56,305 bases of DNA from Planctomycetia bacterium (GCA_016177915.1 JACOUI010000087.1:1-56305), one strand, 5' to 3'. Positions 20,187 through 38,534 are shown, counted from the stretch's first letter. Notes: generated by a model from the sequence alone, not told the origin. A program made the numbers and translations.

Positions 20187-20222
20187 GCTGCGCGCGTCTT
20201 CTTTCGTTTCGCCGCGCCCGCC

Positions 20223-20250
20223 TTGCCAGCGCGGCGGTTTGTGGTAGTCT
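20223..20250 (+). promoter_or_regulatory. Sigma70-like promoter of tRNA-Met
   Basis: TTGCCA-N16-TAGTCT with an extended -10 TG. Confidence 0.5.
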
Positions 20251-20302
20251 CAGAAAGTCGCCCGTCCCGCTGCGGTGCGGGCGGCGAAAAATGAAAAAAG
20301 AC

Positions 20303-20376
20303 GGCGGCGTAGCTCAGTTGGTCAGAGCAGCGGAATCATAATCCGCGTGTCGTAGGTTCGAATCCTACCGCCGCTA
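20303..20376 (+). tRNA. tRNA-Met(CAT), elongator type; CCA not encoded
   Basis: Cloverleaf with GGCGGCG/CGCCGCT acceptor stem, D arm AGCTCAGTTGGTCAGAGC, anticodon arm GCGGA-ATCATAA-TCCGC and T loop GTTCGAATC. Confidence 0.93.
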
Positions 20377-20383
20377 CTTGCCG

Positions 20384-20427
20384 AATCCCCGCAGGAATCC
20401 GCCGCCCCTGCGGGGATTTTGTCGTTT
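20384..20427 (+). terminator. Intrinsic terminator-like hairpin after tRNA
   Basis: AATCCCCGCAGG...CCTGCGGGGATT followed by TTGTCGTTT. Confidence 0.7.
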
Positions 20428-20528
20428 GGAGTTGCGTTTCTGCCCGATCACGACTACTCTGCGCCGCTATTTTCTGGGATCGCCGGGCAAAGCGTCACTT
20501 CCCGACTGACCGTTCCACCGAGTTGGCC

Positions 20529-22424
20529 ATGCGCGCGGCAAACCTCAGCGACGGCCGGCGGCCGGGTTGCGCCTGGGCGCTGGGAGCGGGAATTCGCTGC
20601 CTGGGGTCGCCGAGGCTGACGGCGGTCCTCTGGGCGGCACTGCTGGCCGCGCTGGCCTGGGCGGCCGCCGTCGAGGCCAATCAAGGACAGGCCCACGCAT
20701 CGTGGTTCGTGTATGAAAGCCGCTGGTTCGCCGGGCTCCTGCTGCTGGGCGCACACAGTTCTTGCGCCGTGGCGGTCCGGTTTCCCTGGAGGCGGCGCGA
20801 TCTGGGGTTGGTCGCCCTTCACGTCGGCGTCCTGGTTCTGCTCACGGGTGCCGTGTCGACGCATCTCGGCGGAATCAAAGGGCGTGTTTCACTCGTGCAG
20901 GATCAGACGACGAACGAATTGCTCCGGGACGATCAAGACCAGATGACGGTCGCGCGGATTGCGAAACCTGACGGGCGGGCGCACGAGTTCCGGTTCGCTG
21001 CCGGTCCCGTCGACTGGCCCGCCGGCAAAGCGCTCAGCGTGGGCGAGGTCGACGGAGCGCGTGTTCGAATCCTGGGCTATGTTCGGCACGCCCGGGCCGT
21101 CGAAACATGGACGGCCGACAACTCAGGGTCCGGCGGGCCGCTGGTGAAGTTCAAGGTCGCCGGGCAAGACGGGACGACGATCGCCGAGCATTGGCTCTTC
21201 GACCAGAGCCATGGCGACGCCGTCATGGTCGGGCCGATCCGGCTGCAACTTCAGCAAGCGGCGTCGGAGGCGATGCTCGAGGATTTCCTGCAACCGCCCG
21301 CCGAAGTATTCGCGGCGCCCGCCGAGAAGGGAACTCTCGTCATGTATTATCGGGAGGTCGTGCGGCGGGTTTCCGTCGATGAATACGTCGGAGAGACAAT
21401 CGCGCTTTGCGACGCGACCGTCGAGATCGCCGAGTACCTGCCAAACGCGGCGCCCGACCGGCTGGGCAATTTCACGTCGAAAAGCGACCAGCCGAAGAAT
21501 CCGATGTTGGAGTTGCGGGTATGCGTGGCGGGAGAGGAGAAGCCGATCCGGCAAATCGCGTTTGCCAAGGACGCGCTCTTGAACCTGGACGGCGTCTATT
21601 CCCGGCCGTGTCCCGTGAGATTCCGGTACGTTCATCCGGCGATCGAGCCGCCGGCGGCGCTGGAGTTTTTGCAAGCGCAGGACGGCAAGCTGTACGCGCG
21701 CTTGTGTGCCGGGCGGCGCTGCGAATCCTGCGGCGAGGTGAAGCCGCCCGCCCGGATTCGCCTGCCCGGCGACTTCGAAGTGACGATCCTCGAGTATCTG
21801 CCGCGCGCGGCGCACGACGTCACCTTTCAACCCGTCGGTAGATCGCTCGCTGACATGGAGAGTGAGGACTTCGAACCGGCAGCGCTGGTGGAGGTGACGG
21901 CCGGCGGCGCCACGCGCCAGGTCTGGCTGCAGCGCGGCCATCTCGTCTACGGCAGCCGCCAAATCGACACTCCGGCGGGGACGCTGAGTTTGAGCTACGA
22001 GCAGGGACGCGCGCCGCTCGGGTTCACGTTGACGATGGTCGACGTCGGGCGCGAGGAGAATCCCGCCCAACGTGGCAATTCTTCGCTGCCCGTCAAGGTG
22101 CGCGTCGTAGACGAACAAACCTGCGGCGACGAGGTGTACGAGGTCTCCTCGGACAAGCCGCTCACGCTCGGAGGATTCACATTCTATCCCACCGGCGTGA
22201 CGGACGCCGGGCATGGCCGCGCGGTCGCCGCTTTTCGCGTCGTCTCGGATCCGGGTTGGCCGCTGAAGTGCGCGGGCTGGCTGCTCGTCGGTGCGGGGAT
22301 CGTCGTGATTCTGGTCGTGCGATTCCGCACGCACCGTGCAGGGCACGAGCAGGACGCGCCGGCCCTCGACGGCGCACCTCCTGTAGATCCGTCGTCTTCT
22401 TTTGAGAATCGCGCAGCGGCCTGA
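20529..22424 (+). CDS. ResB/CcsB-like cytochrome c biogenesis protein (System II component)
   Basis: Three N-terminal TMs (LGSPRL..., VYESRWF, LHVGVLVLLTG with a conserved His), a large periplasmic domain and a C-terminal DPG-TM. Start codon uncertain. Confidence 0.7.
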   Translation: MRAANLSDGRRPGCAWALGAGIRCLGSPRLTAVLWAALLAALAWAAAVEANQGQAHASWFVYESRWFAGLLLLGAHSSCAVAVRFPWRRRDLGLVALHVGVLVLLTGAVSTHLGGIKGRVSLVQDQTTNELLRDDQDQMTVARIAKPDGRAHEFRFAAGPVDWPAGKALSVGEVDGARVRILGYVRHARAVETWTADNSGSGGPLVKFKVAGQDGTTIAEHWLFDQSHGDAVMVGPIRLQLQQAASEAMLEDFLQPPAEVFAAPAEKGTLVMYYREVVRRVSVDEYVGETIALCDATVEIAEYLPNAAPDRLGNFTSKSDQPKNPMLELRVCVAGEEKPIRQIAFAKDALLNLDGVYSRPCPVRFRYVHPAIEPPAALEFLQAQDGKLYARLCAGRRCESCGEVKPPARIRLPGDFEVTILEYLPRAAHDVTFQPVGRSLADMESEDFEPAALVEVTAGGATRQVWLQRGHLVYGSRQIDTPAGTLSLSYEQGRAPLGFTLTMVDVGREENPAQRGNSSLPVKVRVVDEQTCGDEVYEVSSDKPLTLGGFTFYPTGVTDAGHGRAVAAFRVVSDPGWPLKCAGWLLVGAGIVVILVVRFRTHRAGHEQDAPALDGAPPVDPSSSFENRAAA

Positions 22425-22745
22425 GCGGCGGATCGGGCGCCCGTCGTCACGGCGACAGGGCCGTGCTGGCTGCGATAGCACGCGCGGTCCCGCGCGCGGG
22501 GGTCGTTTGTCACATGCTATCGCGCGCACCAATGGGCCGATGGCGGTCTTCTACGCTTCGGTGCAAGAAAGGGAGAAGTTCCCTGTAAACGCGGGACGAA
22601 TTCTCTCACTGAGTGACCAACGGCCGGCGGCCCCGCGCGCCGATGCGTCGCGCGAACGCGCGGCCATCGCCACTGCCAGCCGCACCGCGCGACGCCGCGC
22701 CGGACGACCTCTGGCTCCTCGTCGCAAGAGAGAATCGTACACACG

Positions 22746-24227
22746 ATGTCTCCCCCGGCCGCTCGCCTCCGCCGTGCCATTCTTCTCAGCGCCGTGCTGG
22801 CCGGCTGCCTGGCCGGTATCGCCGGCTGCAACGGCCGGCCCGAAACGTCCGGCCGCGCCAATCCCGACCTCAAGCCCTATGGCCCGCACCCCGAGCCGCG
22901 CTGGCAAGAATCCGACTATCCAGTCTTGAAAGTCGCTCTTCCGGAAATCCGCGACGCGGAATTCGTGAACGACGACCAGCTCTGCGCGACCTGCCACCAG
23001 GCCTACACCGAGTCGTTCGCGCACAACGTCCATCGCGGCCAGTCCTGCGAAAAGTGCCACGGACCCGCCAGCAGACATCTAATCAGCCGCGGCAAAGAGC
23101 CGGGCTCGAGCCTGAGCTTCAAGAAGCTGTCGCCGCCCGAGCGGGCGGAACTGTGCCTGAAGTGCCACGAGCAGGACGCCTGCACGCCCGGGTCCAAGTG
23201 GCGGACGTCGCCGCACGCGCATCGCGGCGTCTCGTGCACCGACTGCCACACGTCGCACTACAATGTGCCGCCGGGCACGCCCGCGACGACCGTCGCCGCC
23301 GCAAGCCGCCCGCCGCAGCACGCCCTGGCCAGTTACCGGCAGAACCAGCCGCCGATCGACATCGCCGTTTTGCGCGAGGAATCGAAAAACCTGGGCGCCG
23401 TCACGCCGCACATTTGCTACCGCTGCCATGCCAGCCTGGCCCGGCAGCAGGAAATCGCCCATCCGCACCAGATCTGCGGCGCGGTGGGCTTCGACTGCAG
23501 GACCTGCCACGATCCGCACGGCAAGGTCCGCCAGGAAACGCGCTCCGACCTGTGCCTCAAGTGCCACGACCAGAGCTCCCCCACGATGGCCTGGCACTCG
23601 TCGACCCACTCCCGCTACGGCGTGGCCTGCACCGATTGCCACAATCCACACCCGCACACCGGCGTGCAGCAGCTCGTCAACATCAGCCACATGGACGTCC
23701 GTCGCCCCGGCCGAATGCCCATGTCCGTCGACGAACCGACCGCCTGCTACAAGTGCCACGGCGACATCTACGCCCGCAACGCCATGCCTTCGCATCACCC
23801 CATCAAGGAAGGGAAGATGGAGTGCTCCAGTTGCCACGACCCGCACGGCCAGAGCCAGGGCAACCTGAAGGCATCGACGGTCAACCAGGTGTGCTACAAG
23901 TGCCACGCGGAGAAGCAAGGGCCCTTCGCCTACGAGCATCCGCCGGTGACCGAGAACTGCGGCTATTGCCACGACCCGCACGGCACGGTGGCCAACAACC
24001 TCTTGCACCAGCCGACGACGTTCCTTTGCCTGCGATGTCACACCGGTCACCGCACGAGTCCCCTCGGCCCGAACCACAACAGCCCGGCCAACGGCGTGCT
24101 GCTGGGCGACATCGGCACGAACCCGGCCTTGCAGCGTGCGTTTTTCACCGATTGCACGCAGTGCCACAGCCAGATTCACGGCAGCGACGTGCCCTCGCCG
24201 CACGCGCCGCGCGCCTTCATGAGATAG
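22746..24227 (+). CDS. MtrA/DmsE/PioA-like multiheme cytochrome c, 14 CxxCH, predicted lipoprotein
   Basis: Lipobox-like IAGC, 14 CxxCH motifs counted, and MtrA-family signatures CHAEKQGPF.YEHPPV, CHDPHG and CHSQIHGSD. Confidence 0.9.
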   Translation: MSPPAARLRRAILLSAVLAGCLAGIAGCNGRPETSGRANPDLKPYGPHPEPRWQESDYPVLKVALPEIRDAEFVNDDQLCATCHQAYTESFAHNVHRGQSCEKCHGPASRHLISRGKEPGSSLSFKKLSPPERAELCLKCHEQDACTPGSKWRTSPHAHRGVSCTDCHTSHYNVPPGTPATTVAAASRPPQHALASYRQNQPPIDIAVLREESKNLGAVTPHICYRCHASLARQQEIAHPHQICGAVGFDCRTCHDPHGKVRQETRSDLCLKCHDQSSPTMAWHSSTHSRYGVACTDCHNPHPHTGVQQLVNISHMDVRRPGRMPMSVDEPTACYKCHGDIYARNAMPSHHPIKEGKMECSSCHDPHGQSQGNLKASTVNQVCYKCHAEKQGPFAYEHPPVTENCGYCHDPHGTVANNLLHQPTTFLCLRCHTGHRTSPLGPNHNSPANGVLLGDIGTNPALQRAFFTDCTQCHSQIHGSDVPSPHAPRAFMR

Positions 24228-24308
24228 CCGAGAGCAACCAGCGACGCCGTCAACCGGAGGGGCCAAGAACCCGCCGGCCCCCGCTTGTCGGCAGATCAGG
24301 ACCCAGAC

Positions 24309-26744
24309 GTGACTCGCCACCTGTTCATCCTGTCCGTGCTGTGCGTGGCGGCAACGCCCTTGGCCGCGGACGACGCGCCGCTGCGGCTGGCCGCCGAGAA
24401 GGACGGCGAGCCGAAATCACTCTCCCTCCCCCCTTTGCGGGGGAGGGTCGGGGTGGGGGGGACGGCATTGTTGGCAGAAGGCCAAAAGCACGACGGCGCG
24501 GAATTGCCAGACGTTCGCCTCGCCGGCGGCGAGTGGCTCTCGGAGGAAGACGCGCCGTTTCAACTCGCCGACGATCCCACAAAAGGCGATTGCCCTGCCG
24601 ATTTTCATCCGGTCTGCGACTGCGACTGCCGCATCCCGTGCCTCGACTGCTGGTGCGACGGCTGCCCGCCTTGCTGCACGACGGAATGCTACGGCGACCA
24701 CGGCTGCGAATGTGCGCTGGGAAACTGCTACCAGACCGGCGAGTGCGGCCAGTGGGTCGCCAACGACGCGTGGTGCGATGTCTGGGGCGAGCCGATCTAC
24801 GTCTCGGAGTCGGCGGTGCGTTTCGGCTGGTGGGGCGTCTCCACCCAAGGGCCGCCGACGCGGATCGGCGAGTTCCAGGACCTAAAGTCGTCGCCCTTCT
24901 TCGACGTCGACGCCATCTCCAGCGACGGCGTGCGGACCTGGGACATCAGCCTCACCGGACTCGACAACGAAGCCAACGACGCGCGCGTCTTCTATTACGG
25001 CCCGGGCCTGACGGCCAAGGTGAACTACGAGCGCTTCCTCCGCCGCTGGGACCACGATCCGCTCGTGGGCTTCGACCTCAACGGGCCGGTCGCGCCGACC
25101 CTGGCCGACAACGTCGTCACGCGCGACACGAACGTGGGCGAGGACTACGCCATCCGCGTGCAGCAACTCGACGCCCGCTTCCAGGGCCAGCTCACCGACC
25201 GCGTCAAGTGGCGCCTCAACGTGTGGGGCCTGAAGAAGTCGGGCGAGCGGCAAGCCAACGCCACGGCCCACTGCTTCAACATCGGCGCGGTGGCCCCGCC
25301 CGCGGCGCAGAACAACGCCTGCCACGTCCTCAGTCAGCGGCAGCGCATCGACTGGGAGACGCTGGAAATCCAGCCCGTCGTCGAGGCCCGCTACGAAGCC
25401 GCCACCGTCGAATACTCCCGCACCTGGCGGGCGTTCGGGCAGAGCGACGAGTTCGTGGACCGGAACTACACGCGGTTCGGCTTCTCGCCCGCCAGCGGCG
25501 CGCCGGGCCCGGACTTCGACTACGCCATCGTGCCTGAGAGCCTGACGCAAATCGACCGCCTGAAAGTCGGCGCGGCGCTCAACGAGTTCAACCAGTTTTA
25601 CGCCAACGTCTACCACGGCGACACGAAGAACGAGTTCCGCGGCACCCACCGCGAGTTCAGCGGGTTCGACCTCCGCGTCACGAATTCCGCCATGGACACC
25701 GTCAAGCTCACCGGCTACGTGAGCATGGACGACGAGAACAACGAGTTGCCGACGGTTTTCTTCAACGCCCCGCCGCTCTCGCCGGCCAACAACTACGACC
25801 GGAACTCGCTGCGGCATCCCGTCGATTACACGCGGACGCGCGCCGGCGTCAAGGGGCGCTGGCAGCCCCTCGGCGATTGCGGCGCCGCCAGCGGTTTCTC
25901 GCTGGCCGGCGGCTACGAATACTACATGCTCACCCGCGACTTCGCCGAGTACGACACCGCGCTGGGCACCTTCGTCCAGCCCGACACCATCAGCCACGAG
26001 ATCGAGTTCGGGCCGGCCATGCAGTGGTCGCGCGAGCTGGAAACGTACGTCCGCTACCGGCCCAGGTTCATCGAGGACCCGCTGATCGGCGTGCGCGAGG
26101 CCAACGGGCGATTCAACTCCAACCAGCCGGAGCAGGTCCACAGCGTCGACATCGGCGGCTCGTGGAACCCGACCTGGAACTTCATGGCGACGGCCCAGTT
26201 CAGCGTCGTCAACAGTTGGCACCACTCGGAGTTCGCCTACTTCAACGAGGACGACTACCCGATCATCGTGACCGCCTGGTATGCGCCCACGGAGCGGCTG
26301 TCGGTGACGGGCGGGTACGGCTATTACTCGAATTGGGTCGACCAGGACATCACGCTCGGTTTCACCACGCCGGGCGTGCCCGTGCCGCCCCTCCGCACGG
26401 AGACCACGCGCTGGCAATACGGCGGCGTGAACCACCTGGCCAGCGTCAACCTGGCCTACGCCTGGACGGAGACCGTCCACCTCATCGCGGGCTACGAGTA
26501 CAACCGGGGCCGGAACGTCTTCAACGTCCCGCCCTCGCCCGCGGGCGCGAACTGGTCGCTGCTGCCGTTTTTGGCCGACGTGATCGCCCAAACGCAGCGC
26601 TTCACGGCCGGCGCCGATTGGCAGCCCTATGGCAACCTCAACCTCTACGCCCGCTATGTCTACTTCGACTGGGACGACGTCTCGTCCGGGCTCTACACCG
26701 GCCGCAGCCACATGGTGCTGGGCGGCGGGAGCGTCGACTGGTAG
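24309..26744 (+). CDS. MtrB/PioB-like outer-membrane beta-barrel
   Basis: Directly downstream of the MtrA-like gene; signal peptide from GTG 24309, about 810 aa of alternating amphipathic strands rich in Y/W/G/D, and a terminal aromatic residue (SVDW). Confidence 0.75.
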   Translation: MTRHLFILSVLCVAATPLAADDAPLRLAAEKDGEPKSLSLPPLRGRVGVGGTALLAEGQKHDGAELPDVRLAGGEWLSEEDAPFQLADDPTKGDCPADFHPVCDCDCRIPCLDCWCDGCPPCCTTECYGDHGCECALGNCYQTGECGQWVANDAWCDVWGEPIYVSESAVRFGWWGVSTQGPPTRIGEFQDLKSSPFFDVDAISSDGVRTWDISLTGLDNEANDARVFYYGPGLTAKVNYERFLRRWDHDPLVGFDLNGPVAPTLADNVVTRDTNVGEDYAIRVQQLDARFQGQLTDRVKWRLNVWGLKKSGERQANATAHCFNIGAVAPPAAQNNACHVLSQRQRIDWETLEIQPVVEARYEAATVEYSRTWRAFGQSDEFVDRNYTRFGFSPASGAPGPDFDYAIVPESLTQIDRLKVGAALNEFNQFYANVYHGDTKNEFRGTHREFSGFDLRVTNSAMDTVKLTGYVSMDDENNELPTVFFNAPPLSPANNYDRNSLRHPVDYTRTRAGVKGRWQPLGDCGAASGFSLAGGYEYYMLTRDFAEYDTALGTFVQPDTISHEIEFGPAMQWSRELETYVRYRPRFIEDPLIGVREANGRFNSNQPEQVHSVDIGGSWNPTWNFMATAQFSVVNSWHHSEFAYFNEDDYPIIVTAWYAPTERLSVTGGYGYYSNWVDQDITLGFTTPGVPVPPLRTETTRWQYGGVNHLASVNLAYAWTETVHLIAGYEYNRGRNVFNVPPSPAGANWSLLPFLADVIAQTQRFTAGADWQPYGNLNLYARYVYFDWDDVSSGLYTGRSHMVLGGGSVDW
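24420..24461. repeat. In-frame palindromic element CCCTCCCCCCTTTGCGGGGGAGGGTCGGGGTGGGGGGG
   Basis: Hairpin CCCTCCCCC/GGGGGAGGG with a G-rich tail; encodes LSLPPLRGRVGVGG inside the barrel N-terminal region. Confidence 0.7.
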
Positions 26745-26756
26745 GCCCGTGCACTT

Positions 26757-28502: not shown

Positions 28503-28538
28503 GAAAAAACTCGGGAATGTGGACGGCCTGCGCCGGAG

Positions 28539-29072
28539 CTACTTCTTCTTCCTCATTTCCGGCGGCGTTTCGGAGTCGTGGTGCCCCTGCAACCGGTGGC
28601 AATCCACGCACACGTTCTTGGGCAGCATCTTCCAGATCGAGCCGCGGACCTCCTTCTCCTGCTCCGGCGTGAGCTTCTTGTTGGTGAAGGGCTTGGCGAT
28701 CTCCTCGTGCTTGCTGCCCGGTCCGTGGCAGGTTTCGCACGTGACGCCGACCAGCCCCGGCGTGGAGGCGGGGTCCTTGAATCCCGTCGGCTCGCCGTGG
28801 CCCGTGGTGTGGCACTTCAGACACTCGGCGTCGGACTGGTGCTTGGCGGTGAGGACCTCGAAGGTCTTGGCGTGCGGCGTGGCGCGCCACTTCAGGAACT
28901 GGTCGAAATGGCAGGCGGAGCAGCGCTTCAAGCCGGTGTACGTTTGGTCGGCGGGAGGCTCGGCCGCGGCCGGACGCGGCGACGCCGCCCCCAACAGCGC
29001 CGACAAGCCGGCGCACACCGCCAGCGAGATTCCCACTACGATCCCAACGCCCGTCCGTTTGGCCGCGGACAT
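28539..29072 (-). CDS. Tetraheme cytochrome c554-like protein
   Basis: Signal peptide, YTGLKRCSACH, W..TPHA, CLKCHTTG, GVTCETCHGPGSKH and CVDCH; GAGGAG RBS. Confidence 0.85.
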   Translation of the reverse strand: MSAAKRTGVGIVVGISLAVCAGLSALLGAASPRPAAAEPPADQTYTGLKRCSACHFDQFLKWRATPHAKTFEVLTAKHQSDAECLKCHTTGHGEPTGFKDPASTPGLVGVTCETCHGPGSKHEEIAKPFTNKKLTPEQEKEVRGSIWKMLPKNVCVDCHRLQGHHDSETPPEMRKKK

Positions 29073-29392
29073 TCGTCCGTCTCCTCTTCTGTGGTGCAAG
29101 TGACGCGGCGAAATCCCATCCCTGATCGAGGCTCAATGCCGCGCGTCCCCGTAGTGAAGTGGCGCCTCGAATGGCCGGATTCTAGCCCGATCCGCGCAGC
29201 CGCACAATCTGACGGGCTGCCGTTGGCCCGTGGACGCCTACCAACGATAGGTCAGAGATGACAGATCGCGCGCATCGGGAATTCCCCGGAACGCCGGCGC
29301 GCGGACGGCTCGTCCCGAGCGTGCCGAAATGTGCGCGGCCGCGCGCTGCGGACGACAGGTGCCGCCGGACCGCAAAATCGCTCTATGCCGCT

Positions 29393-30430
29393 TTACCGGG
29401 CCGCCTGGCCGGCCTTGCGCGAAGCCGATCGTCGAGTACCTCGTGCATCCTGCGCCTTCGCATTCTCGGCCGGCGCACTTGGCTTTCGCCCGAACCGCAT
29501 GGCAATGGCCGCCCCAAGCACGAGTACCGACAACAGAACCACGGCGGACCACCGCGCATACGTGGTCCATGCGATAGGCAGCGCACCCAGGCGCACGGTC
29601 ACGATCTGGCCGCGGGAGAGCGCATCGCCCTCCGAGGCAAAGACTTTTTCGCCCGGATCGTCGCCGGCGGCGGCAGGGAGGCTGCCCTGGACCTCGTCCA
29701 GCTTCTCGTGCCGCACCTGCACCCGCAGCGACTCGCACGGCGCGTCGACCGTTCGCTGCCAGACGCGCTGGCCGTCGTCGTTGCGAAGCGTATAAGTGAA
29801 TCGCAGCCAGCGCTCGCCAGGCAGCCACGGCAGGCTCGTGACCAGACGGCCGTCGATCAGCGTGAATTGCCGCCCGAACGACTCCTTTTCGAACGTCACG
29901 CGCTCAAAGTCGGCCGGGATGCCCAGTTGCAGCGTCAGCGGCTGGCCGTCCGCATGCGCCGCGCGGCCGACAAAGGTGCGCGGGCTGGGGTTGTCGATCA
30001 ACATCGCCTCCTCCACGTGAATCGCCCCCGGCGCCGTGCGAATCGCGATCTCGTGCCGGCGGATAATGAGCGGGCTCGGCTCGGCGACTGCATCGTGAAC
30101 GGCCAGCGGAACGTCCAAGGTAGGTTTGGCGGCCGTCAACTCCACGCGCCGACCGGGATAGTGGATCCCGTCGTGGTTGGCTCCTGGCAAATAGACGCAC
30201 TCCGACCCGACCGGCAGGCCCGAGAATTCATAAAAGCCCCGCTCGTCCGAAAGCGTTTCCGCGACGGGCACAAGTTGCCCGTCCACGACCGCCCGCAGGA
30301 CGACTTCAGCGCGAGCACAGGGCCGGTGGTTTTGCGACGCGTTGACGACTCGGCCGCGGATCACGCCGTCATCCGAAAGCATCGCTCCGGGAACGACGCA
30401 TCCTGCGGCCACCAGCAGCGCGACAAACAT
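29393..30430 (-). CDS. ccm-associated exported protein (carboxypeptidase-regulatory-like N-domain, C-terminal TM)
   Basis: Hydrophobic N-terminus ending VAAGC, IRGRVVN...SDERGFYEFSGL beta-sandwich pattern and a C-terminal TM with a basic tail; last gene of the ccm run. Confidence 0.6.
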   Translation of the reverse strand: MFVALLVAAGCVVPGAMLSDDGVIRGRVVNASQNHRPCARAEVVLRAVVDGQLVPVAETLSDERGFYEFSGLPVGSECVYLPGANHDGIHYPGRRVELTAAKPTLDVPLAVHDAVAEPSPLIIRRHEIAIRTAPGAIHVEEAMLIDNPSPRTFVGRAAHADGQPLTLQLGIPADFERVTFEKESFGRQFTLIDGRLVTSLPWLPGERWLRFTYTLRNDDGQRVWQRTVDAPCESLRVQVRHEKLDEVQGSLPAAAGDDPGEKVFASEGDALSRGQIVTVRLGALPIAWTTYARWSAVVLLSVLVLGAAIAMRFGRKPSAPAENAKAQDARGTRRSASRKAGQAAR

Positions 30431-30453
30431 AAGCGAGGTCCTTCCCTGGCCAG

Positions 30454-30621
30454 TCAAGCGGCCTGACGGCGGTCTGGCACGCGATCTTCCCCGCGGCCGT
30501 CCACGTCCTTCCGCAGCGATTCGAGCTGCCATCGCAGCCGCAGTTGGTTCTGCGCGAGGAATGCCAGGTACCAAAGGAGAGCCGAACCGACCGCCACGCA
30601 TCCGGCGACAAATGTGCCCAT
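30454..30621 (-). CDS. ccmD: CcmD-like small membrane protein (55 aa)
   Basis: AAGGAG RBS, single TM followed by a charged coil (QLRLRWQLESL), directly after ccmC. Confidence 0.65.
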   Translation of the reverse strand: MGTFVAGCVAVGSALLWYLAFLAQNQLRLRWQLESLRKDVDGRGEDRVPDRRQAA

Positions 30622-30647
30622 CGCGAACTCCTTCCATCGCGGGCTGA

Positions 30648-31328
30648 CTACATTCCGACGAGAGCAGACGATCGCCGCGCCAGCTCCGCGACGTGCTGCC
30701 CCAACCGCAGTTGATTTCGGCGGCACTCGCCCAGCCACGCAAATAGCGCCGCCAGTCCCAAGAAGCTGATCCACAGCGCCGCCCGCATCGAGGGATCCAG
30801 CTCCGGAGCGACGGGGTGCATGCCACGGAACCAACGCGTGGCCAGCACCACGAGCGGCACGTCGAGCGCGCCCAGGATCGCCAGGACGGCGGCGACCCGG
30901 GCTTTCCGGTGCGGGTCGTCGATCGTCGACCGGACGAGCAGAATTCCCGACGAGATCACCCACAGGACCAAGGCCGACGTGAGCCGGGGCTCCCATTCCC
31001 ACCAGGCGCCCCAGGCCTCGTGGGCCCAGAGGGAACCGGTGACGAGCGTCAGCGTGCAGCCGAGCCAGCCCACCTCGCCCGCCGCCTGCGCGGCGTGGTC
31101 GAAGCGCAGATCGCGCCGCGCCAGGTAACATGCGCCGCCCGCCGCCATCGCCAGGAATCCCAAGAGCGCCAGCCACGCCACGGGAACGTGCAGGTACACG
31201 ATTCGCTGCGCGTCGCCCATCGTCGCCTCGCGCGGCGCGAGCAGCGCAGCCGCCACGACCACCGCGGCCAGCAGCACCGCGACGGACGATTCGGCGGCGA
31301 CGCGAGAGATCGATCGTCGTGCGCTCAT
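30648..31328 (-). CDS. ccmC: Heme exporter protein C
   Basis: RIVYLHVP, TGSLWA..AWGAWWEWEPRLT (WWD domain) and RGMHP motifs. Confidence 0.9.
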   Translation of the reverse strand: MSARRSISRVAAESSVAVLLAAVVVAAALLAPREATMGDAQRIVYLHVPVAWLALLGFLAMAAGGACYLARRDLRFDHAAQAAGEVGWLGCTLTLVTGSLWAHEAWGAWWEWEPRLTSALVLWVISSGILLVRSTIDDPHRKARVAAVLAILGALDVPLVVLATRWFRGMHPVAPELDPSMRAALWISFLGLAALFAWLGECRRNQLRLGQHVAELARRSSALVGM

Positions 31329-31332
31329 GGCG

Positions 31333-32004
31333 CTATTCCTCAATCGCGTAGTCGAACAACAGCGTACCCGCCGTCACAAAGACGATCGCAAACGCCCACA
31401 GCAATTGCATCCAGCGCCACCAGGCGTCGTCGAAGCGGTCCTCGGCGGCGAGGCGCGTGCACTCGGCCGCCGCCAGAATCACCGGAAACACAAGCGGCAT
31501 CGCCACCAGCAAAAGCAGGCTGCCGCTTCGTCCGTTTCCCGCAGAAAGCGCAGCGGCCAGCGTGCCGACGGCGGCCAGGCCCAGGCAGGCGGGCAGTGCG
31601 ACCGACGCCAGCGCACGCACGTGCGAAAGCAGCGGCAAATCCGACAGCAGAAAATACAGCGGCAGCAGCAGGCAGCCGAGCGCCAGCAAGGCCAGAAAGT
31701 TGACGGCCAGCTTCGCCACGTACAAGGCCCCCGGCGCGATCGGCATCATCCGCAGGCCGTCCCAGCAGCCGTCGTCCCGTTCGCCGGCGACCGAGCGCTC
31801 GATGACCGCCGCACCGGCCAGAAAGACCGACACCCACAAGAGGCCGCCGACGAGCCGCGGCTTTTCGTGCGGCAAAAGGTCCATTTGCAGGCTGAAGACG
31901 AGCGCCGCGACGACCCCCACCAGCAGCATCGCCGGCCAGGCGCGCCGCGAGCGGAACTCGCTCACCAGGTCCTTGTGAATGATCCGGCAGCAGTCGGCAA
32001 ACAC
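31333..32004 (-). CDS. ccmB: Heme exporter protein B
   Basis: KDLVSEFRSR, ERDDGCWDGL and PLVFPVIL motifs, six TMs, located between ccmA and ccmC. Confidence 0.85.
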   Translation of the reverse strand: MFADCCRIIHKDLVSEFRSRRAWPAMLLVGVVAALVFSLQMDLLPHEKPRLVGGLLWVSVFLAGAAVIERSVAGERDDGCWDGLRMMPIAPGALYVAKLAVNFLALLALGCLLLPLYFLLSDLPLLSHVRALASVALPACLGLAAVGTLAAALSAGNGRSGSLLLLVAMPLVFPVILAAAECTRLAAEDRFDDAWWRWMQLLWAFAIVFVTAGTLLFDYAIEE

Positions 32005-32019
32005 GGCCTGCGACCTCCG

Positions 32020-32736
32020 TTACACTGCCTTTCGTGCGGGAAAAACCGACACGTGCACGTCGCCGCGACGCGACGCAACGTCAGTCTCCATCTCGTTTAG
32101 TCTTGCGGACCGAAGCTCGCAAACACGGTCAGCAATCTGGCAGGCGGCAGGTTGCTCATGCGTCGTAAGGCAAACAGCGCATCCGCCGGCCCGCATCGCA
32201 GTGAGCGTTTGCCAGAGCCAACGGGCGCCCTCTTCATCCAACCCTGCAAACGGCTCGTCGAGCAGCAAAACGCGCGGATGATGAATGACCGCGCGTGCCA
32301 AGGTGACGCGCTGTCCCATGCCGCGCGAAACTTGTGAAGGATGGCGCCCGCTATGCGCCGCGAGGCCGACTTCCGCCAGCAGCGCATCGACCCGCTGAGC
32401 TGGCTGGGGGACGCGATACATCCGTGCGGCAAAGAGCAGGTTCTCGCGCAGCGTGAGCTGCGGATAGAGCCGGCTTTCGTGGGCGGACATCCCCAAAAAA
32501 CGCCGCACCGCCGGATCGCCGTCGATTCTCCGCCCGAACCATTCAACCTCGCCCGAGGTGGGCCGAGTGAGTCCGGCCAGGCACCGCAAGAGAGTCGTCT
32601 TGCCGGACCCGTTGTCGCCGCGCCAGGCGACACACTCGCCGGCCGACAGGTCGAAGTCGATCCTGTCCAAGACCGCTTGCCCGCCAAAATGTTTCGTCAG
32701 CCCGATCGCTCGCAGGGGCAGGTCGTGCTCTTTCAT
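32020..32736 (-). CDS. ccmA: Heme ABC exporter ATPase
   Basis: Walker A GDNGSGKTT, signature SRGMGQR, Walker B LLLDEPF; operon context. Confidence 0.85.
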   Translation of the reverse strand: MKEHDLPLRAIGLTKHFGGQAVLDRIDFDLSAGECVAWRGDNGSGKTTLLRCLAGLTRPTSGEVEWFGRRIDGDPAVRRFLGMSAHESRLYPQLTLRENLLFAARMYRVPQPAQRVDALLAEVGLAAHSGRHPSQVSRGMGQRVTLARAVIHHPRVLLLDEPFAGLDEEGARWLWQTLTAMRAGGCAVCLTTHEQPAACQIADRVCELRSARLNEMETDVASRRGDVHVSVFPARKAV

Positions 32737-34787
32737 GGGTCACCTGCCGAATGCAGCGAGCGGATCTTGCGCCAGTGCGGGCGCGTGACAACGCTCCGCG
32801 CGGTTTCTTCCGCTAGCTCATCTTCTCCGTCGGCGGCCGCCAGCGCCGCGTTGCCGTCGTGAAGCCTCTGCGGCCAGAGCCGGATCAAGGCCCCCGCGAC
32901 GATGATGCCGCCCCCCAGCCACAGCCAGCGCATCATCGGATTCTCGACGAACGTCAACGAGACCTGGCCATCGGCCGTGCCGCTGTGCAGGATCGTGTAA
33001 AAGTCGCCGCCCCACGTGGACTGGATCGCCACCTCCGTCGTCCATTCCTGCTGCAGCCGGTGAAAATGCTGCGCCGGGACGAGCGTCGCCTCGACGCGGC
33101 CTCCGCGGGCAATCTCCAGCTCAGCCTCGGCCACGATCCTGTCGGCCAGGTCGCGCTGGTTGCGACGCATGAGGCGGACGTCCCGCCCCGCCCAGGCAAC
33201 CGTCTGCCCCTGGGTCATCACGAACTCCTGCTCCCGATGCCCCAGCGACGAACCCACGATCCCGAGGGCCACCGAAACGAGCCCCAGATGAATCAGAAAT
33301 CCGGCGTATTGCCCGCGACCGCACCGAAGTGCCGTGACTACGCCCCACACGGGCCGCGCCGGATGGCGCTGCTGACCGTCGAGAATCAAAGCGCCCGCGA
33401 GCGCGACGACCGCGCCCACTGCGATCCCGGCCGCCGCCAGCGCGAGCGGGTGATAGCTCACCATCACCGCCGTCAATATCGCCGTCACGCCGCCAGCACA
33501 GGCCGACCCCATCAGCCAGCGATTCTGCCCCTGGCTTGGCCCGACTTTCCAGCGCAGAAGCGGCGCCATCGCCGTGGTCAAAAGCAGCGTCAGCCCGGTG
33601 GGAATGAGCACGTTGTTGTAGAACGCCGGCCCGACCACGATGGGCTTGTCCGAAAACAAGGTCGACAGGGCGGTGCTGCACGTGCCGGTCACGACCACGG
33701 CCGTCAGGAGCAACAGCGAGACGATGGAGACCAGCACGAGCGACTCGCGGCAGAGGATGCTGCGCGCAGCCCCCCCTTGTGCAGCCAGCAACCACCGCCG
33801 TACGAGCAGAATGACCGCCCCGCCGATCAACAGGACCGCCATCAGCGCCAGAAAGAGCCAGCCGATCGGCGACTTGCTGAAGGCGTGCACGCTGCTGAAC
33901 ACCCCGCTGCGCGTGAGAAACGTGGCGAAGTTGCACAGGCCAAACGTGACGAGCGCCAGCGAAAACGCCGTCTTCTTCAGCACGCCCGCGAACTGCCAGG
34001 CCATCATGCCGTGGATCAACGCCGTGCCGGTCAGCCACGGCAGCAGCGACCCGTTTTCGACGGGGTCCCAGCTCCAGTAGCCGCCCCAGCCGAGCTCTTC
34101 ATACGCCCAGTCCGCCCCCAGCAGGATGCCCACGCCCAGCACTGTCCACGCCACCAGTGCCCAGGGCCGCGCCTCGCGAATCCAGCCCGCGTCCGCTCGC
34201 CCGCTGACCAGCGCGACGCAGGCCATCGCAAACGGCACCGTCCACAGCGCGTATCCCAAAAACACGATCGGCGGATGAATCAGCATCGCAGGATGCTGCA
34301 AGAGCGGGCTTAAGCCCGCGCCGTCGTGCGGCGCGGCGAGGCTGGCGTCCATCGGATCGGCAGCGAAAACGATCACCACGATCAGGAACGCCAAGTAGCC
34401 CATCAGCACGCCGAACGTCGGATCGCGCATCGCCGAAGTCTCGCGGCGCGGCTTGAACCGGCAAACAAGCGCGATCACTCCGAGCACAAAGGCCCATAAC
34501 AGGAGCGACCCGGCCTGACCGACCCACAGCGCCGACAGCGAATAGTGCGACGGCAGCAGCTTGCTCGAGTACTGGGCGACGTAAGCAAACGAGAAGTCTT
34601 TTGTGTACAAGGCCCAGGCCAGGGCGCCGACCACGATCGACAGCGCCGCAACGCTGATAACCCCCGCCATCAAACCCGCCGTGCGCACGAGGCGATGGCC
34701 GCGCCAGGTTCCCACCACGCAGCCGAACGCCGAGAACCCGGCGCCGACAAACGCGGCCAAAAGGCAGAATTCGCCCAGGGTTCTCAT
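32733..34787 (-). CDS. ccmF: Cytochrome c heme lyase CcmF/NrfE
   Basis: GQAGSLLLW, GLSPLLQHP.MLIHPP, WAYEELGWGGYWSWDPVEN and TFLTRSGV.SSVHAF motifs. Confidence 0.95.
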   Translation of the reverse strand: MRTLGEFCLLAAFVGAGFSAFGCVVGTWRGHRLVRTAGLMAGVISVAALSIVVGALAWALYTKDFSFAYVAQYSSKLLPSHYSLSALWVGQAGSLLLWAFVLGVIALVCRFKPRRETSAMRDPTFGVLMGYLAFLIVVIVFAADPMDASLAAPHDGAGLSPLLQHPAMLIHPPIVFLGYALWTVPFAMACVALVSGRADAGWIREARPWALVAWTVLGVGILLGADWAYEELGWGGYWSWDPVENGSLLPWLTGTALIHGMMAWQFAGVLKKTAFSLALVTFGLCNFATFLTRSGVFSSVHAFSKSPIGWLFLALMAVLLIGGAVILLVRRWLLAAQGGAARSILCRESLVLVSIVSLLLLTAVVVTGTCSTALSTLFSDKPIVVGPAFYNNVLIPTGLTLLLTTAMAPLLRWKVGPSQGQNRWLMGSACAGGVTAILTAVMVSYHPLALAAAGIAVGAVVALAGALILDGQQRHPARPVWGVVTALRCGRGQYAGFLIHLGLVSVALGIVGSSLGHREQEFVMTQGQTVAWAGRDVRLMRRNQRDLADRIVAEAELEIARGGRVEATLVPAQHFHRLQQEWTTEVAIQSTWGGDFYTILHSGTADGQVSLTFVENPMMRWLWLGGGIIVAGALIRLWPQRLHDGNAALAAADGEDELAEETARSVVTRPHWRKIRSLHSAGDP

Positions 34788-35215
34788 GGGCTTTTTTTCC
34801 CGGTGGAGCTGGCAGAGCTGGAATCGGCCGCGGCGGATTCATACTTGCTGGCGCAGCGCGTCAGCACCTTGTCGCCGCGCAAGAGTCCCCCAGGCGCGAG
34901 CCGCCCTTCGACGACAACGTCCATGTTTTCCTTGAGATTGTCGGGCACGGCACCGTCACAGACGACGTTCAACCTGGCCGAGCGCCCTTGCAGACAGAAG
35001 GTCGCCCGCGAGCGGTCGGCGGCAATCTGCAGCGAGCCGGCGGCGACGCCGCCGCTGACGCGCACCCGATTTCCCTCCAGCTTCGCCGGCTCCGCCAGGC
35101 ATTCGTCGACCGTCACGTAGTACTGCCAGCTCGACGAGGCGCCCACGTACGCCATGTACGTGGTTACTCCAACCACGACGACCAGGCCCCCGGCCAGCTT
35201 GACACCCGGCGACAT
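34784..35215 (-). CDS. ccmE: Heme chaperone CcmE, CxxxY variant
   Basis: N-terminal TM, YYVTVDE, RVRVSG, PDNL....VVVEG and VLTRCASKYE motifs. Confidence 0.9.
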   Translation of the reverse strand: MSPGVKLAGGLVVVVGVTTYMAYVGASSSWQYYVTVDECLAEPAKLEGNRVRVSGGVAAGSLQIAADRSRATFCLQGRSARLNVVCDGAVPDNLKENMDVVVEGRLAPGGLLRGDKVLTRCASKYESAAADSSSASSTGKKSP

Positions 35216-35271
35216 CCTTGTCCTCCCGCCCGCGCTGCTAGCGCCCGCACTCCTCGACGATTGGGCCGCGG

Positions 35272-35300
35272 ACGGTAGCAAATCTTGGGAACGCTGTCAA
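35272..35300 (-). promoter_or_regulatory. Sigma70-like promoter of the ccm operon
   Basis: Minus strand TTGACA-N17-TACCGT with an extended -10 TG. Confidence 0.6.
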
Positions 35301-35410
35301 AGTGAGTCGCGGCGACGGGACGCCCGGCGTCCTGATCTGCAAACCAAAGCCGTCTAATGGCTTGTGGCGCTGCGTCTCTGGCGACATTCCGACGGCAGGC
35401 CGGGCGGCGA

Positions 35411-35511
35411 CGGCGGGATCGAATCCGCACGTCGTACGTTCGATCCAATCGGCTGTGCAGACGAAAAATCCCCGCGGAAGACCATCGCCTCCCGCGGGGA
35501 TTTCGTCGTTT
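35411..35511 (+). repeat. Decayed copy of tRNA-Met 3' part and terminator (attR-like)
   Basis: AATCCGCacGTCGTAcGTTCGA-TCC versus tRNA AATCCGCgtGTCGTAgGTTCGAaTCC. The hairpin AATCCCCGC...GCGGGGATTT.GTCGTTT is shared with 20384..20427. Confidence 0.7.
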
Positions 35512-35531
35512 TTCAAGCCGCGCTTGCGGCG

Positions 35532-35813
35532 CTAGATTCCGGTGCGCTGCAGGACTTCCTTCAGTTCCCCGTCCTCCAGGACCGGCACCGTCTCCAATTG
35601 CATCACGTCGCTCCACTGCAGGGCGAACTCGGTGAGCGCCTTGGCGTCGTCGCTCTCCAAGAGGTCAAAACCCCCGCTGAAATCGGCCGCCGTCCAGCGG
35701 CCCAAGAGCTTCGTGCCCGCGGGCGGCTTGCCGCCGGTCTTCTTGAAGCGGGCGATGGCCTCGTCGCGGCCCTTGATTTCCGGCTTGAAGTTGAAGGTGA
35801 GCATGAATTTCAT
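35532..35813 (-). CDS. DUF3303-like small protein
   Basis: 93 aa with PPAGTKLLGRW...GF.LLESDD...W.D....ETVPVLED pattern. Confidence 0.75.
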   Translation of the reverse strand: MKFMLTFNFKPEIKGRDEAIARFKKTGGKPPAGTKLLGRWTAADFSGGFDLLESDDAKALTEFALQWSDVMQLETVPVLEDGELKEVLQRTGI

Positions 35814-38392: not shown

Positions 38393-38534
38393 ACGCTCGG
38401 ATTCCAAATGATTCGAGTATGTGCCAAAGGCAAGTCCCATTTAACCCGCTCTTGAAGTGAAACGCAAAGCGCGTCGCCCTGGCCACGTCGACCGCTAAAA
38501 TCGTATGCTTCCATGAACCGCTGATCGTTTTCCC

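What the first reader, a model, noticed from the sequence alone, without database searches (positions are those of the whole stretch)
20328..35511. Cytochrome cluster is bracketed by tRNA-Met and a decayed copy of it (fossil att sites)
Seen: 35411..35511 repeats, in direct orientation, the tRNA anticodon arm to T arm (CGGCGGGATCG-AATCCGCacGTCGTAcGTTCGA-TCC versus CAGCGGAATCATAATCCGCgtGTCGTAgGTTCGAaTCC) and the downstream hairpin (AATCCCCGC...GCGGGGATTT.GTCGTTT). The repeats enclose the resB-to-ccmE block and no other genes. Known: integrative elements duplicate tRNA 3' ends. Inference: the respiratory module was acquired horizontally long ago, since the repeat has decayed and no integrase remains.
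Basis: partly seen in the sequence, partly recalled or inferred. Interest (0 to 1): 0.75.

Follow-up and report, generated by a model that had tools for sequence, protein, structure and literature searches.

The report
Fossil tRNA island carrying cytochrome genes
A 15-kb block of cytochrome and haem-attachment genes in a planctomycete genome lies between a tRNA gene and a worn copy of that tRNA's second half, which is the usual scar of an old integrated mobile island whose integrase gene has since been lost.

Summary
Positions 20330-20427 (anticodon stem to 3' end of tRNA-CAU, plus its terminator hairpin) recur in direct orientation at 35413-35511 (78 matches, 13 mismatches, 15 gap positions). 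It is the best non-self match in the whole 6-Mb genome (score 60; next best 38, all true tRNAs). The hairpin occurs nowhere else.

The 11 genes between the copies are an MtrA/DmsE-like multihaem cytochrome, an MtrB/PioB-like outer-membrane protein, a ResB-like protein, a NapC/NirT-type multihaem protein, a tetrahaem cytochrome and a variant System I (ccmEFABC, Cys-type CcmE, no CcmH).

The fossil-att reading is supported. In related genomes the orthologous tRNA has tyrosine integrases directly 3' of it, with fresh direct repeats that start at the same tRNA position. In two of those genomes the repeat also includes the terminator hairpin. No integrase or integrase remnant is left in the window.

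The cluster was not found in any of the 12 other species of the family, and in only 13 of 400 sampled genomes of the order. None of 53 other cluster-bearing loci has this tRNA nearby.

Not shown:
- No empty site was found.
- Base composition is unremarkable.
- The gene trees do not prove transfer.

This is a new member of a known kind. Interest is moderate and lies mostly in the cargo.

The parts
16230..18746 (+). Left flank: PSCyt1/PSCyt2/PSD1 planctomycete cytochrome-domain protein (host gene outside the block)
   Evidence: Pfam PF07587, PF07583 and PF07635. Orthologues at 45-73% identity lie beside DUF1501 orthologues in metagenome loci.
18795..20186 (+). Left flank: DUF1501 protein (host gene)
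   Evidence: Pfam PF07394, 449 bits. There are 80 metagenome orthologues at 69-85% identity, and none is followed by this tRNA.
20303..20377 (+). Intact tRNA with CAU anticodon. It is elongator-type: Met, or possibly Ile2, not resolved. It is the regenerated target gene (attL side).
   Evidence: ARAGORN. Rfam tRNA model 70.1 bits. Orthologue found in 41 of 41 genomes searched.
20330..20427 (+). Proximal copy of the direct repeat: anticodon stem to 3' end of the tRNA, spacer, and terminator hairpin with T-run
   Evidence: Local alignment coordinates. Whole-genome scan.
20380..20427 (+). Proximal hairpin followed by a T-run; likely terminator of the tRNA
   Evidence: Fold -25.1 kcal/mol, z -2.78. 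Part of it is flagged terminator-like at 20398-20414.
20523..22424 (+). ResB-like membrane protein (633 aa; weak, sub-threshold ResB match)
   Evidence: Pfam PF05140 at E 4e-4, below cut-off. Homologues at 32-47% identity lie near ccm genes in 12 of 53 loci.
22746..24227 (+). Periplasmic multihaem cytochrome c, DmsE/MtrA-like, with 14 CXXCH motifs
   Evidence: TIGR03508 at 244 bits, above the 192.2 cut-off; NF041028 at 310 bits, below its 325 cut-off. Paired_CXXCH_1. Motif count.
24285..26744 (+). Putative outer-membrane beta-barrel partner (MtrB/PioB-like, GSU2204-like) with a Cys-rich N-terminal stretch
   Evidence: No Pfam hit. NF041027 at 147 bits, below its 350 cut-off. Atlas feature neighbours include MtrB/PioB clusters at score 0.97. 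Sequence.
26757..28502 (-). Membrane-anchored NapC/NirT-type multihaem cytochrome with c7/c3 modules (11 CXXCH plus 1 variant motif). Candidate quinol dehydrogenase.
   Evidence: Pfam PF03264, PF14522, PF14537. Motif count.
28539..29099 (-). Tetrahaem c554-like cytochrome
   Evidence: Pfam PF13435. 4 CXXCH motifs.
29393..30430 (-). Membrane protein with a CarboxypepD_reg-like domain (start uncertain). It always follows ccmC in related loci.
   Evidence: Pfam PF13620, sub-threshold. Present after ccmC in 45 of 53 loci; the other 8 end before that position. Atlas neighbours are unnamed planctomycete clusters.
30648..31343 (-). ccmC
   Evidence: PF01578 at 115 bits. TIGR01191 at 124 bits, below cut-off.
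31333..32004 (-). ccmB
   Evidence: PF03379 at 72.7 bits.
32020..32736 (-). ccmA (ABC ATPase)
   Evidence: TIGR01189 at 136.9 bits, above the 131.6 cut-off. PF00005.
32733..34787 (-). ccmF (haem lyase)
   Evidence: PF16327 and PF01578. TIGR00353 at 350 bits, below cut-off.
34784..35281 (-). ccmE, the variant with Cys in place of the haem-binding His (motif CASKY). Start codon uncertain.
   Evidence: PF03100 at 79.7 bits. Motif.
35413..35511 (+). Distal copy of the direct repeat: a non-functional 3' fragment of the tRNA (anticodon loop shortened, T stem broken) plus hairpin. It is the displaced fragment (attR side).
   Evidence: No tRNA is called here. No fold beyond chance for the tRNA-like part.
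35460..35507 (.). Distal hairpin, with an A-run before it and a T-run after it. On the - strand it is a strong stem followed by five T, 20 nt after the DUF3303 stop, so it is the likely terminator of DUF3303.
   Evidence: Fold -38.5 kcal/mol, z -7.06 on the - strand; -29.7 kcal/mol on the + strand. Sequence.
35532..35813 (-). Right flank: DUF3303 protein (host side of the scar)
   Evidence: PF11746 at 94 bits. Homologues in 8 of 400 other genomes of the order, none beside this tRNA.
36122..38440 (-). Right flank: PSCyt2/PSD1 protein
   Evidence: Pfam PF07583, PF07587.

Best explanation
The block 20378-35412 is what remains of a genomic island that a tyrosine integrase inserted into the 3' half of the tRNA(CAU) gene.

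How the insertion worked. The crossover lay in or near the anticodon arm. The element carried its own copy of the tRNA from the anticodon stem to the 3' end, plus a terminator hairpin. That copy now completes the working tRNA gene (20303-20377, hairpin to 20427). The host's original 3' half and its terminator were pushed 15 kb away to 35413-35511. There the hairpin still ends the convergent DUF3303 gene, while the tRNA-like part is useless and has degenerated.

What happened afterwards. The integrase, which in relatives sits convergent with and directly 3' of the tRNA, was later deleted together with any other mobility genes. With the repeats now about 74% alike and no integrase, the island can no longer excise and is fixed.

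The cargo. Two convergent operons make up a self-contained respiratory module:
- an MtrA/DmsE-like multihaem cytochrome with an MtrB/PioB-like outer-membrane partner and a ResB-like protein;
- a NapC/NirT-type membrane multihaem protein and a tetrahaem cytochrome;
- a dedicated variant System I haem-attachment machinery (ccmEFABC with Cys-type CcmE, no CcmH).
This System I is additional to the genome's housekeeping System II.

Shown:
- the repeat and its uniqueness in the genome;
- its boundary at the anticodon stem;
- the identity of the genes;
- the absence of an integrase in the window;
- use of the orthologous tRNA by integrases in relatives, with the same repeat architecture;
- the sporadic distribution of the cargo.

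Inferred:
- that an integrase made this particular repeat;
- that the cytochrome genes were the island's cargo;
- which of the two copies came from the host;
- the function of the cargo as an electron conduit.
For: 1. The repeat is real, direct and unique. It is the best non-self match in the genome, 60 against 38 for the next. The hairpin occurs nowhere else.

2. Similarity begins at the anticodon stem, with no trace of the tRNA 5' half at the distal site. This is how displaced tRNA fragments of islands look. [quoted passage not shown]

3. The same tRNA is a live integration site in relatives. Integrases lie directly 3' of it in G020, G023, G025 and G031. They are mutually 34-52% identical and match PF00589. 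Homologues lie within 1.5 kb in 8 of 29 tRNA loci.

4. The fresh repeats in those genomes start at tRNA positions 24-29:
- G020: 49 bp, exact.
- G025: 47 bp, two copies.
- G031: 131 bp, about 94% identical.
- G023: about 135 bp.
In G031 and G023 the repeat includes the terminator hairpin, as it does here.

5. The T-stem variant and the hairpin sequence shared by the two G000 copies differ from those of the relatives. The two copies therefore descend from one lineage-specific sequence.

6. The cargo is sporadic:
- CcmF was not found in 0 of 12 other family members, and a true homologue occurs in 1 of 28 other family representatives.
- The outer-membrane protein was found in 0 of 12.
- CcmF occurs in 13 of 400 other genomes of the order, spread over 6 of 29 other families.

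7. In 53 other planctomycete loci with the same ccm clade, 0 have this tRNA within 10 kb.

8. The System I here is accessory. A System II CcsBA-like 1531-aa ORF lies on C147.

9. The block holds the cargo and nothing else. Its two operons start at the two scars and converge at 26744/26757.
Against: - No integrase, remnant or other mobility gene lies in the block.
- No compositional signal: GC 0.667 against 0.659 +/- 0.012 for the genome; tetranucleotide distance at the 86th percentile of 204 windows; GC3 like the flanks.
- No empty site was found. None of 80 metagenome loci with the DUF1501 orthologue has the tRNA downstream. None of 8 DUF3303 loci has it. No contig in 4 runs joins the tRNA to DUF3303.
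- The CcmF tree places G000 (SH-aLRT 92, not starred) with 'Pirellulaceae'-labelled genomes, and the labels cluster. Vertical descent with many losses is therefore not excluded.
- The RpoB tree leaves G000's place in its family unresolved. If G000 is the deepest branch, one loss would explain 0 of 12.
- The tRNA-like part alone is only marginally better than other tRNAs.
- The P-arm regions show no similarity to the relatives' islands, although the relatives' arms do not resemble each other either.
Confidence: 0.65

Rival explanations
1. The block was inserted at the tRNA, but not by a site-specific integrase. One route is single-crossover homologous recombination of a circular DNA that carried about 100 bp of the tRNA 3' half plus terminator, taken from a close relative. 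Another is a local segmental duplication followed by insertion between the copies.
For: The repeat runs about 50 nt beyond the tRNA and shares lineage-specific features: the T-stem variant and the hairpin sequence. No integrase is present. Composition is native-like.
Against: The left boundary of the repeat coincides with the boundaries of the integrase-made repeats in relatives, positions 24-29 against 28. Repeats that include the hairpin occur beside live integrases in G031 and G023, so the long repeat needs no other mechanism.
Confidence: 0.15
2. The repeat is the scar of an old island, but the cytochrome/ccm genes were not its cargo. They moved into the scarred interval later by rearrangement or accretion at a hotspot, or they replaced the original content.
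For: The tRNA is a hotspot with tandem or multiple fragments in relatives: two fragments 6.3 kb apart on G025:C88, and an inverted copy in G023. The cluster sits in many different contexts in other genomes. Its CcmF groups with genomes of the same broad taxon.
Against: The interval holds nothing except the cluster. Its two operons abut the two scars with about 100 nt to spare on each side. A second event would have had to remove all earlier content cleanly.
Confidence: 0.12
3. There was no insertion. The distal element is chance similarity, or two similar terminators that converged, and the cluster is ancestral at this place.
For: The tRNA-like part alone scores 33, against 28-29 for controls. 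There is no compositional anomaly.
Against: The joint alignment scores 60, against a maximum of 27 in 2000 shuffles and 38 for the best other locus in the whole genome. The copies have the same order, spacing and orientation on the same contig. The cluster was not found in 12 of 12 family members.
Confidence: 0.04

Closest known systems
Genomic islands integrated in tRNA/tmRNA genes by tyrosine integrases, as catalogued in Islander (PMC4383910, abstract start seen in the listing). Classic examples such as P4-like islands and the Mesorhizobium symbiosis island are recalled from memory, not from a call.
   Same: An intact tRNA sits at one end and a direct repeat of its 3' part at the other. The fragment starts in the anticodon arm. 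The cargo is sporadic among relatives. The same tRNA is occupied by integrase-bearing islands in relatives.
   Different: No integrase or other mobility gene is left. The repeats are only about 74% alike, so the island is immobile. There is no compositional deviation. The repeat extends through the terminator hairpin, which is also seen in G031 and G023.
MtrAB/PioAB-type porin-cytochrome conduits with a CymA/NapC-type quinol dehydrogenase, as in Shewanella and Rhodopseudomonas (system recalled from memory). PCC complexes have been annotated in Planctomycetota genomes (PMC10732223, passages read).
   Same: A DmsE/MtrA-family multihaem cytochrome scores above the NCBIfam cut-off. It is adjacent to a large outer-membrane-like protein whose nearest Atlas clusters are MtrB/PioB. 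A NapC/NirT-type membrane multihaem protein is also present.
   Different: There are 14 haem motifs rather than 10. The barrel protein has no Pfam MtrB_PioB match and has a Cys-rich N-terminal stretch. No MtrC-like surface cytochrome was identified. The module is coupled to its own ccm operon. Function is untested.
[quoted passage not shown] 2006, FEBS Lett). Only its title was seen, in the reference list of PMC4429474. The details given here are recalled.
   Same: ccmA, B, C, E and F are present. CcmE has Cys where the haem-binding His would be: the Cys is kept in 50 of 50 homologues covering the motif, and the Tyr four residues later in 48 of 50. No CcmH was found in the 93%-complete genome.
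   Different: It occurs in Planctomycetota alongside a System II. It is always followed by a CarboxypepD_reg-like membrane protein, in 45 of 45 loci that reach that position. It is linked to a multihaem/outer-membrane module.

Membership tests
tRNA-integrated genomic island (tyrosine integrase, attL/attR) | Intact target tRNA gene at one end | tested here: met
   ARAGORN. Rfam 70.1 bits against a gathering score of 29.
tRNA-integrated genomic island (tyrosine integrase, attL/attR) | Direct repeat of the 3' part of that tRNA at the other end, beyond chance | tested here: met
   Score 60, against a shuffle maximum of 27 and a best other genome locus of 38.
tRNA-integrated genomic island (tyrosine integrase, attL/attR) | Integrase gene inside the island, usually next to the tRNA | tested here: not met
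   The 6 PF00589 matches in G000 are all on other contigs. tblastn with 5 relatives' integrases finds only the trivial overlap with the tRNA itself.
tRNA-integrated genomic island (tyrosine integrase, attL/attR) | The same tRNA is used as an integration site by integrases in related genomes, with the same sublocation | tested here: met
   Four genomes were examined in detail. Integrase homologues occur at 8 of 29 tRNA loci. The repeats start at tRNA positions 24-29.
tRNA-integrated genomic island (tyrosine integrase, attL/attR) | Sporadic presence among relatives | tested here: met
   0 of 12 family members. 13 of 400 genomes of the order.
tRNA-integrated genomic island (tyrosine integrase, attL/attR) | Empty site (tRNA joined to the distal flank) in a relative | tested here: inconclusive
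   None was found in 80 metagenome loci, 8 DUF3303 loci or the contigs of 4 runs. No same-genus genome is available, and flank synteny is not conserved at family level.
tRNA-integrated genomic island (tyrosine integrase, attL/attR) | Deviant base composition | tested here: not met
   (86th percentile of 204 windows). This feature is not required for old islands or islands from related donors.
Variant System I (Cys-type CcmE, no CcmH) | ccmA, B, C, E and F present | tested here: met
Variant System I (Cys-type CcmE, no CcmH) | CcmE with Cys in place of the haem-binding His, followed by Tyr four residues later | tested here: met
   CASKY in G000. Cys in 50 of 50 and Tyr in 48 of 50 homologues covering the motif. 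The alignment to canonical HxxxY is from recall, not from a call.
Variant System I (Cys-type CcmE, no CcmH) | No CcmH | tested here: met
   PF03918 has no match in G000, which is 93% complete. None in the block.
MtrAB/PioAB-type porin-cytochrome pair | Periplasmic DmsE/MtrA-family multihaem cytochrome | tested here: met
   TIGR03508 at 244 bits, cut-off 192.2.
MtrAB/PioAB-type porin-cytochrome pair | Adjacent MtrB/PioB-family beta-barrel | tested here: inconclusive
   No Pfam PF11854 match. NF041027 at 147 bits, below its 350 cut-off. Atlas feature neighbours are MtrB/PioB clusters at 0.97. No structure was predicted.
MtrAB/PioAB-type porin-cytochrome pair | [quoted passage not shown] | not testable with these tools
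   This needs an experiment.

The most novel reading that the evidence does not exclude
The whole package is a portable 'plug-in respiration' cassette that moves among Planctomycetota on tRNA-targeting integrative islands. The package is an MtrAB-like conduit, a NapC-type quinol dehydrogenase, a periplasmic tetrahaem carrier and its own Cys-CcmE System I, which includes a conserved and undescribed CarboxypepD_reg-like membrane component. On this reading, G000 is a domesticated end state of such an island. The dedicated System I exists because the resident System II cannot mature these multihaem proteins.
Probability: 0.25. Interest if true: 0.6.

Novelty: new member of a known kind. Interest (0 to 1): 0.4.

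Why it matters
The finding shows how a planctomycete lineage probably gained a complete multihaem electron-transfer module together with the haem-attachment machinery it needs. The module arrived as one insertion at a tRNA hotspot and then became fixed when the integrase was lost.

For genome annotation, it is an example of an island that integrase-based finders would miss, because only the decayed tRNA fragment marks it.

The cargo is the more interesting part. A variant System I sits next to a resident System II and is strictly linked to an MtrAB-like module. It occurs in at least 53 planctomycete species-level genomes but in only about 3% of a 400-genome sample of the order. This points to an accessory, possibly mobile, capacity for extracellular or outer-membrane electron transfer in a phylum where respiratory chains are poorly known.

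Tried and rejected
Empty site
- Left flank: the DUF1501 protein was scanned against metagenome contigs. 80 loci were kept at 69-85% identity. None has this tRNA or cluster genes downstream; 4 have other tRNAs. Synteny is simply not conserved.
- Right flank: DUF3303 was searched in 400 genomes of the order and matched in 8. None of the 8 loci has the tRNA within 1.5 kb; one has a tRNA-Pro.
- Read sets: Logan contigs of 4 runs (2 studies) were laid on 18500-37500. No joint links the tRNA to DUF3303. The listed joints have sides of 20-27 letters, or 69 for a 139-base skip, and are not at the scars. Contigs cannot show rare variants. X1 bridges 26632-35636, and X4 (another study, a few differences) bridges 35329-35764.

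Integrase and arm remnants
- tblastn of five relatives' integrases against the window found nothing except the translated tRNA itself.
- Comparison of the 220 nt upstream of the displaced fragments (putative P arms) showed no similarity. The arms of the relatives do not match each other either, so this is uninformative.

Repeat finder
- The ungapped repeat finder did not report the repeat because of its indels.

Trees
- RpoB, 19 rows: G000 sits in an unresolved polytomy, so losses cannot be counted. G008 and G009 had no match. G006 was left out (46% identity, in-frame TGA), as was G016 (split across contigs).
- CcmF, 46 rows: 8 of 53 loci were dropped because their best HSP was under 550 aa. 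The tree does not show transfer.

Second partial tRNA near the cluster
- In L067 only one tRNA-Arg fragment exists, and no second copy was found.

Earlier notes of this scan
- Nothing was found.

Literature
- Searches listed no paper describing this island or a ccm-linked module in Planctomycetota. Only the listings and the passages of PMC4429474 and PMC10732223 were read. Supplements were not opened.

Full report
**The observation**

The window is a whole contig (C87) of a 6.03-Mb, 387-contig planctomycete assembly. Its flanking genes carry the PSCyt, PSD1 and DUF1501 domains typical of the phylum.

ARAGORN finds a single tRNA, anticodon CAT, at 20303-20377 on the + strand. Rfam's tRNA model scores it 70.1 bits. 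It is elongator-type. The assembly's other CAT tRNA (C324) is not initiator-like either, so Met or Ile2 cannot be decided here.

A local alignment places 20330-20427 against 35413-35511, both on the + strand. It has 78 matches, 13 mismatches and 15 gap positions. The repeat starts at the 5' side of the anticodon stem. It runs to the tRNA 3' end, crosses a short spacer and covers a GC-rich hairpin with its T-run. Upstream of 35413 nothing resembles the acceptor 5' strand or the D arm.

**Is it more than chance?**

The alignment scores 60. Two thousand shuffles reach at most 27, and 3000 random genome segments reach at most 35. I then scanned the whole assembly on both strands (79,958 alignments). 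The distal site is the best non-self hit. The next best, at 38, are genuine tRNA genes.

The hairpin is not a dispersed repeat.

One caveat applies. The tRNA-like part alone scores 33, against 28-29 for other tRNAs and a reverse-complement control. The case rests on the tRNA part and the hairpin occurring together, in the same order, spacing and orientation.

Both hairpins fold well. The distal one folds best on the - strand (-38.5 kcal/mol, z -7.1). There it is followed by five T and lies 20 nt after the stop of the convergent DUF3303 gene. The proximal one is followed by a T-run on the + strand. The distal tRNA-like stretch has lost a loop base and its T stem, and folds no better than shuffles.

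**What lies between the copies**

GC3 frame analysis and family searches give 11 genes and nothing else.

On the + strand:
- a ResB-like membrane protein;
- a multihaem cytochrome with 14 CXXCH motifs that passes the DmsE-family cut-off;
- an 819-aa protein with no Pfam match, a sub-threshold GSU2204-family match, and MtrB/PioB clusters as its nearest Atlas neighbours.

On the - strand, converging on the first operon at 26744/26757:
- ccmE, ccmF, ccmA, ccmB and ccmC;
- a CarboxypepD_reg-like membrane protein;
- a tetrahaem c554-like cytochrome;
- a NapC/NirT-type membrane multihaem cytochrome.

CcmE has Cys where the haem-binding His is expected (CASKY). No CcmH is found in the genome. This is the variant System I. 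The genome also has a System II CcsBA-like fusion on C147, so the System I in the block is an accessory second system.

**Is the tRNA an integration site?**

The orthologous tRNA is found in 41 of 41 genomes searched. That search also lists partial copies that begin at tRNA positions 24-33 and run to the 3' end. There are 11 rows in 10 relatives; I verified 5 of these rows, in 4 genomes, by alignment.

| Genome | Repeat | Arrangement |
|---|---|---|
| G020 | exact 49-bp direct repeat | 80 kb apart |
| G025 | two 47-bp fragments | on another contig |
| G031 | 131 bp, about 94% identical, includes the terminator hairpin | 30 kb apart |
| G023 | about 135 bp, includes the hairpin | 72 kb away, inverted orientation |

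In all four genomes a PF00589 tyrosine integrase lies directly 3' of the tRNA and convergent with it. The integrases are 34-52% identical to one another. Homologues lie within 1.5 kb of the tRNA in 8 of 29 relatives' loci.

This tRNA is therefore a hotspot for one integrase clade. That clade's repeats begin where the G000 repeat begins, and some of its elements carry the terminator as well.

G000 itself has no integrase on C87. Its only homologue of this clade lies beside tRNA-Arg(TCT) on C58.

**Is the cargo foreign?**

Distribution among relatives:
- CcmF and the 819-aa protein were not found in any of the 12 other species of the family. These genomes are 66-99% complete.
- A true CcmF homologue occurs in 1 of 28 representatives of other families.
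- It occurs in 13 of 400 other sampled genomes of the order, scattered over 6 of 29 other families.

A scan of species-representative genomes found 53 loci with this CcmF clade, all labelled Planctomycetota, at 43-65% identity. In these loci:
- ccmEFABC plus the CarboxypepD_reg-like gene form an invariant core, present in 45 of the 45 loci that reach that position.
- The cytochrome, barrel, ResB-like and NapC-type genes lie nearby in varying order.
- None of the 53 has this tRNA within 10 kb.
- None has an integrase of this clade.

Evidence that does not favour transfer:
- The block's composition is ordinary.
- G000's CcmF groups (SH-aLRT 92) with 'Pirellulaceae'-labelled genomes in a tree whose labels cluster.
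- The RpoB tree cannot place G000 within its family.

A donor within the same order, or vertical descent with many losses, both fit the trees. The insertion scar is what tips the balance towards acquisition.

**What could not be shown**

No empty site was found. Flank synteny is lost even in the closest available sequences. Contigs of four public runs show only the occupied form.

Age cannot be read from the 26% difference. The element's copy and the host's copy need not have been identical at integration; the fresh G031 pair is 94% identical. Both G000 copies share a T-stem variant and a hairpin sequence that the relatives lack. The donor of the proximal copy was therefore close kin, or the element had long resided in this lineage.

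**Verdict**

The remaining probability goes to three rivals:
- insertion at the tRNA by another recombination route;
- a scar whose present content arrived later;
- chance, which is nearly excluded.

The kind of element, a degenerate tRNA-associated genomic island, is well known (PMC4383910, abstract start seen in the listing). Porin-cytochrome genes have been annotated in Planctomycetota genomes before (PMC10732223, passages read; that text has no mention of ccm).

What may be new is the strict coupling of a Cys-CcmE System I, with a conserved extra membrane protein, to an MtrAB-like module across the phylum, together with this one case where the module sits inside an island scar. My two literature searches listed no description of that. 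I read only listings and a few passages, and no supplements.

Noticed in passing
L067:13644-13688 (- strand), hairpin to about 13610: One of the closest cluster-bearing contigs has an uncalled 3' fragment of a tRNA-Arg(TCT) (positions 31-75, 80% identical to G000's gene) followed by a hairpin. It lies about 650 nt beyond the CarboxypepD_reg-like gene and 500 nt from the contig end. By its orientation the ccm cluster lies on the host-flank side of the fragment, not inside an island. No second fragment occurs on the contig. G000's integrase of the same clade also sits beside tRNA-Arg(TCT).
   Followed up: partly
window 29393-30430 (-) and L056-L108: A membrane protein with a weak CarboxypepD_reg-like domain follows ccmC in 45 of 45 related loci that reach that position. 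It has no named family, and its Atlas neighbours are unnamed planctomycete clusters. It may be an undescribed component of this variant System I.
   Followed up: partly
window about 24400-24760 (within 24285-26744 +): The putative barrel protein has a very Cys-rich N-terminal stretch. Public contigs break at 24421-24461 with many loose ends, and summed depth spikes there. This suggests a sequence shared with other organisms or a repeat.
   Followed up: no
G000:C317:15484-19138: rpoB of this assembly is read in two frames: 1132 aa matched, then the last roughly 87 profile positions in another frame starting at 18878. This is a frameshift or an assembly error.
   Followed up: no
G006:C3:154265-157699: The only RpoB match in this 'same family' genome (66% complete, 8.5 Mb, 6 contigs) is 41-46% identical and has several in-frame TGA codons. 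It may be a contaminant, a pseudogene or another genetic code.
   Followed up: no
window 17067-17378 and 37589-37888: The PSCyt/PSD1 genes on the two sides of the block are inverted paralogues with 71-79% complementary stretches of about 100 nt. This probably reflects conserved domains rather than a structural repeat.
   Followed up: no
G025:C88:489-538 and 6789-6838; G023:C1:5726571-5726657: Relatives show tandem displaced fragments 6.3 kb apart (G025) and an inverted fragment 72 kb from the tRNA (G023). These are signs of island accretion and inversion at this hotspot.
   Followed up: partly
G000:C267:19624-19720 and C273:17401-17491: The genome has a tRNA-SeC. ARAGORN also calls an odd tRNA with a four-base anticodon. 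Two cargo proteins hit NCBIfam '(seleno)protein' families below cut-off, but no in-frame TGA is needed to read them here.
   Followed up: no
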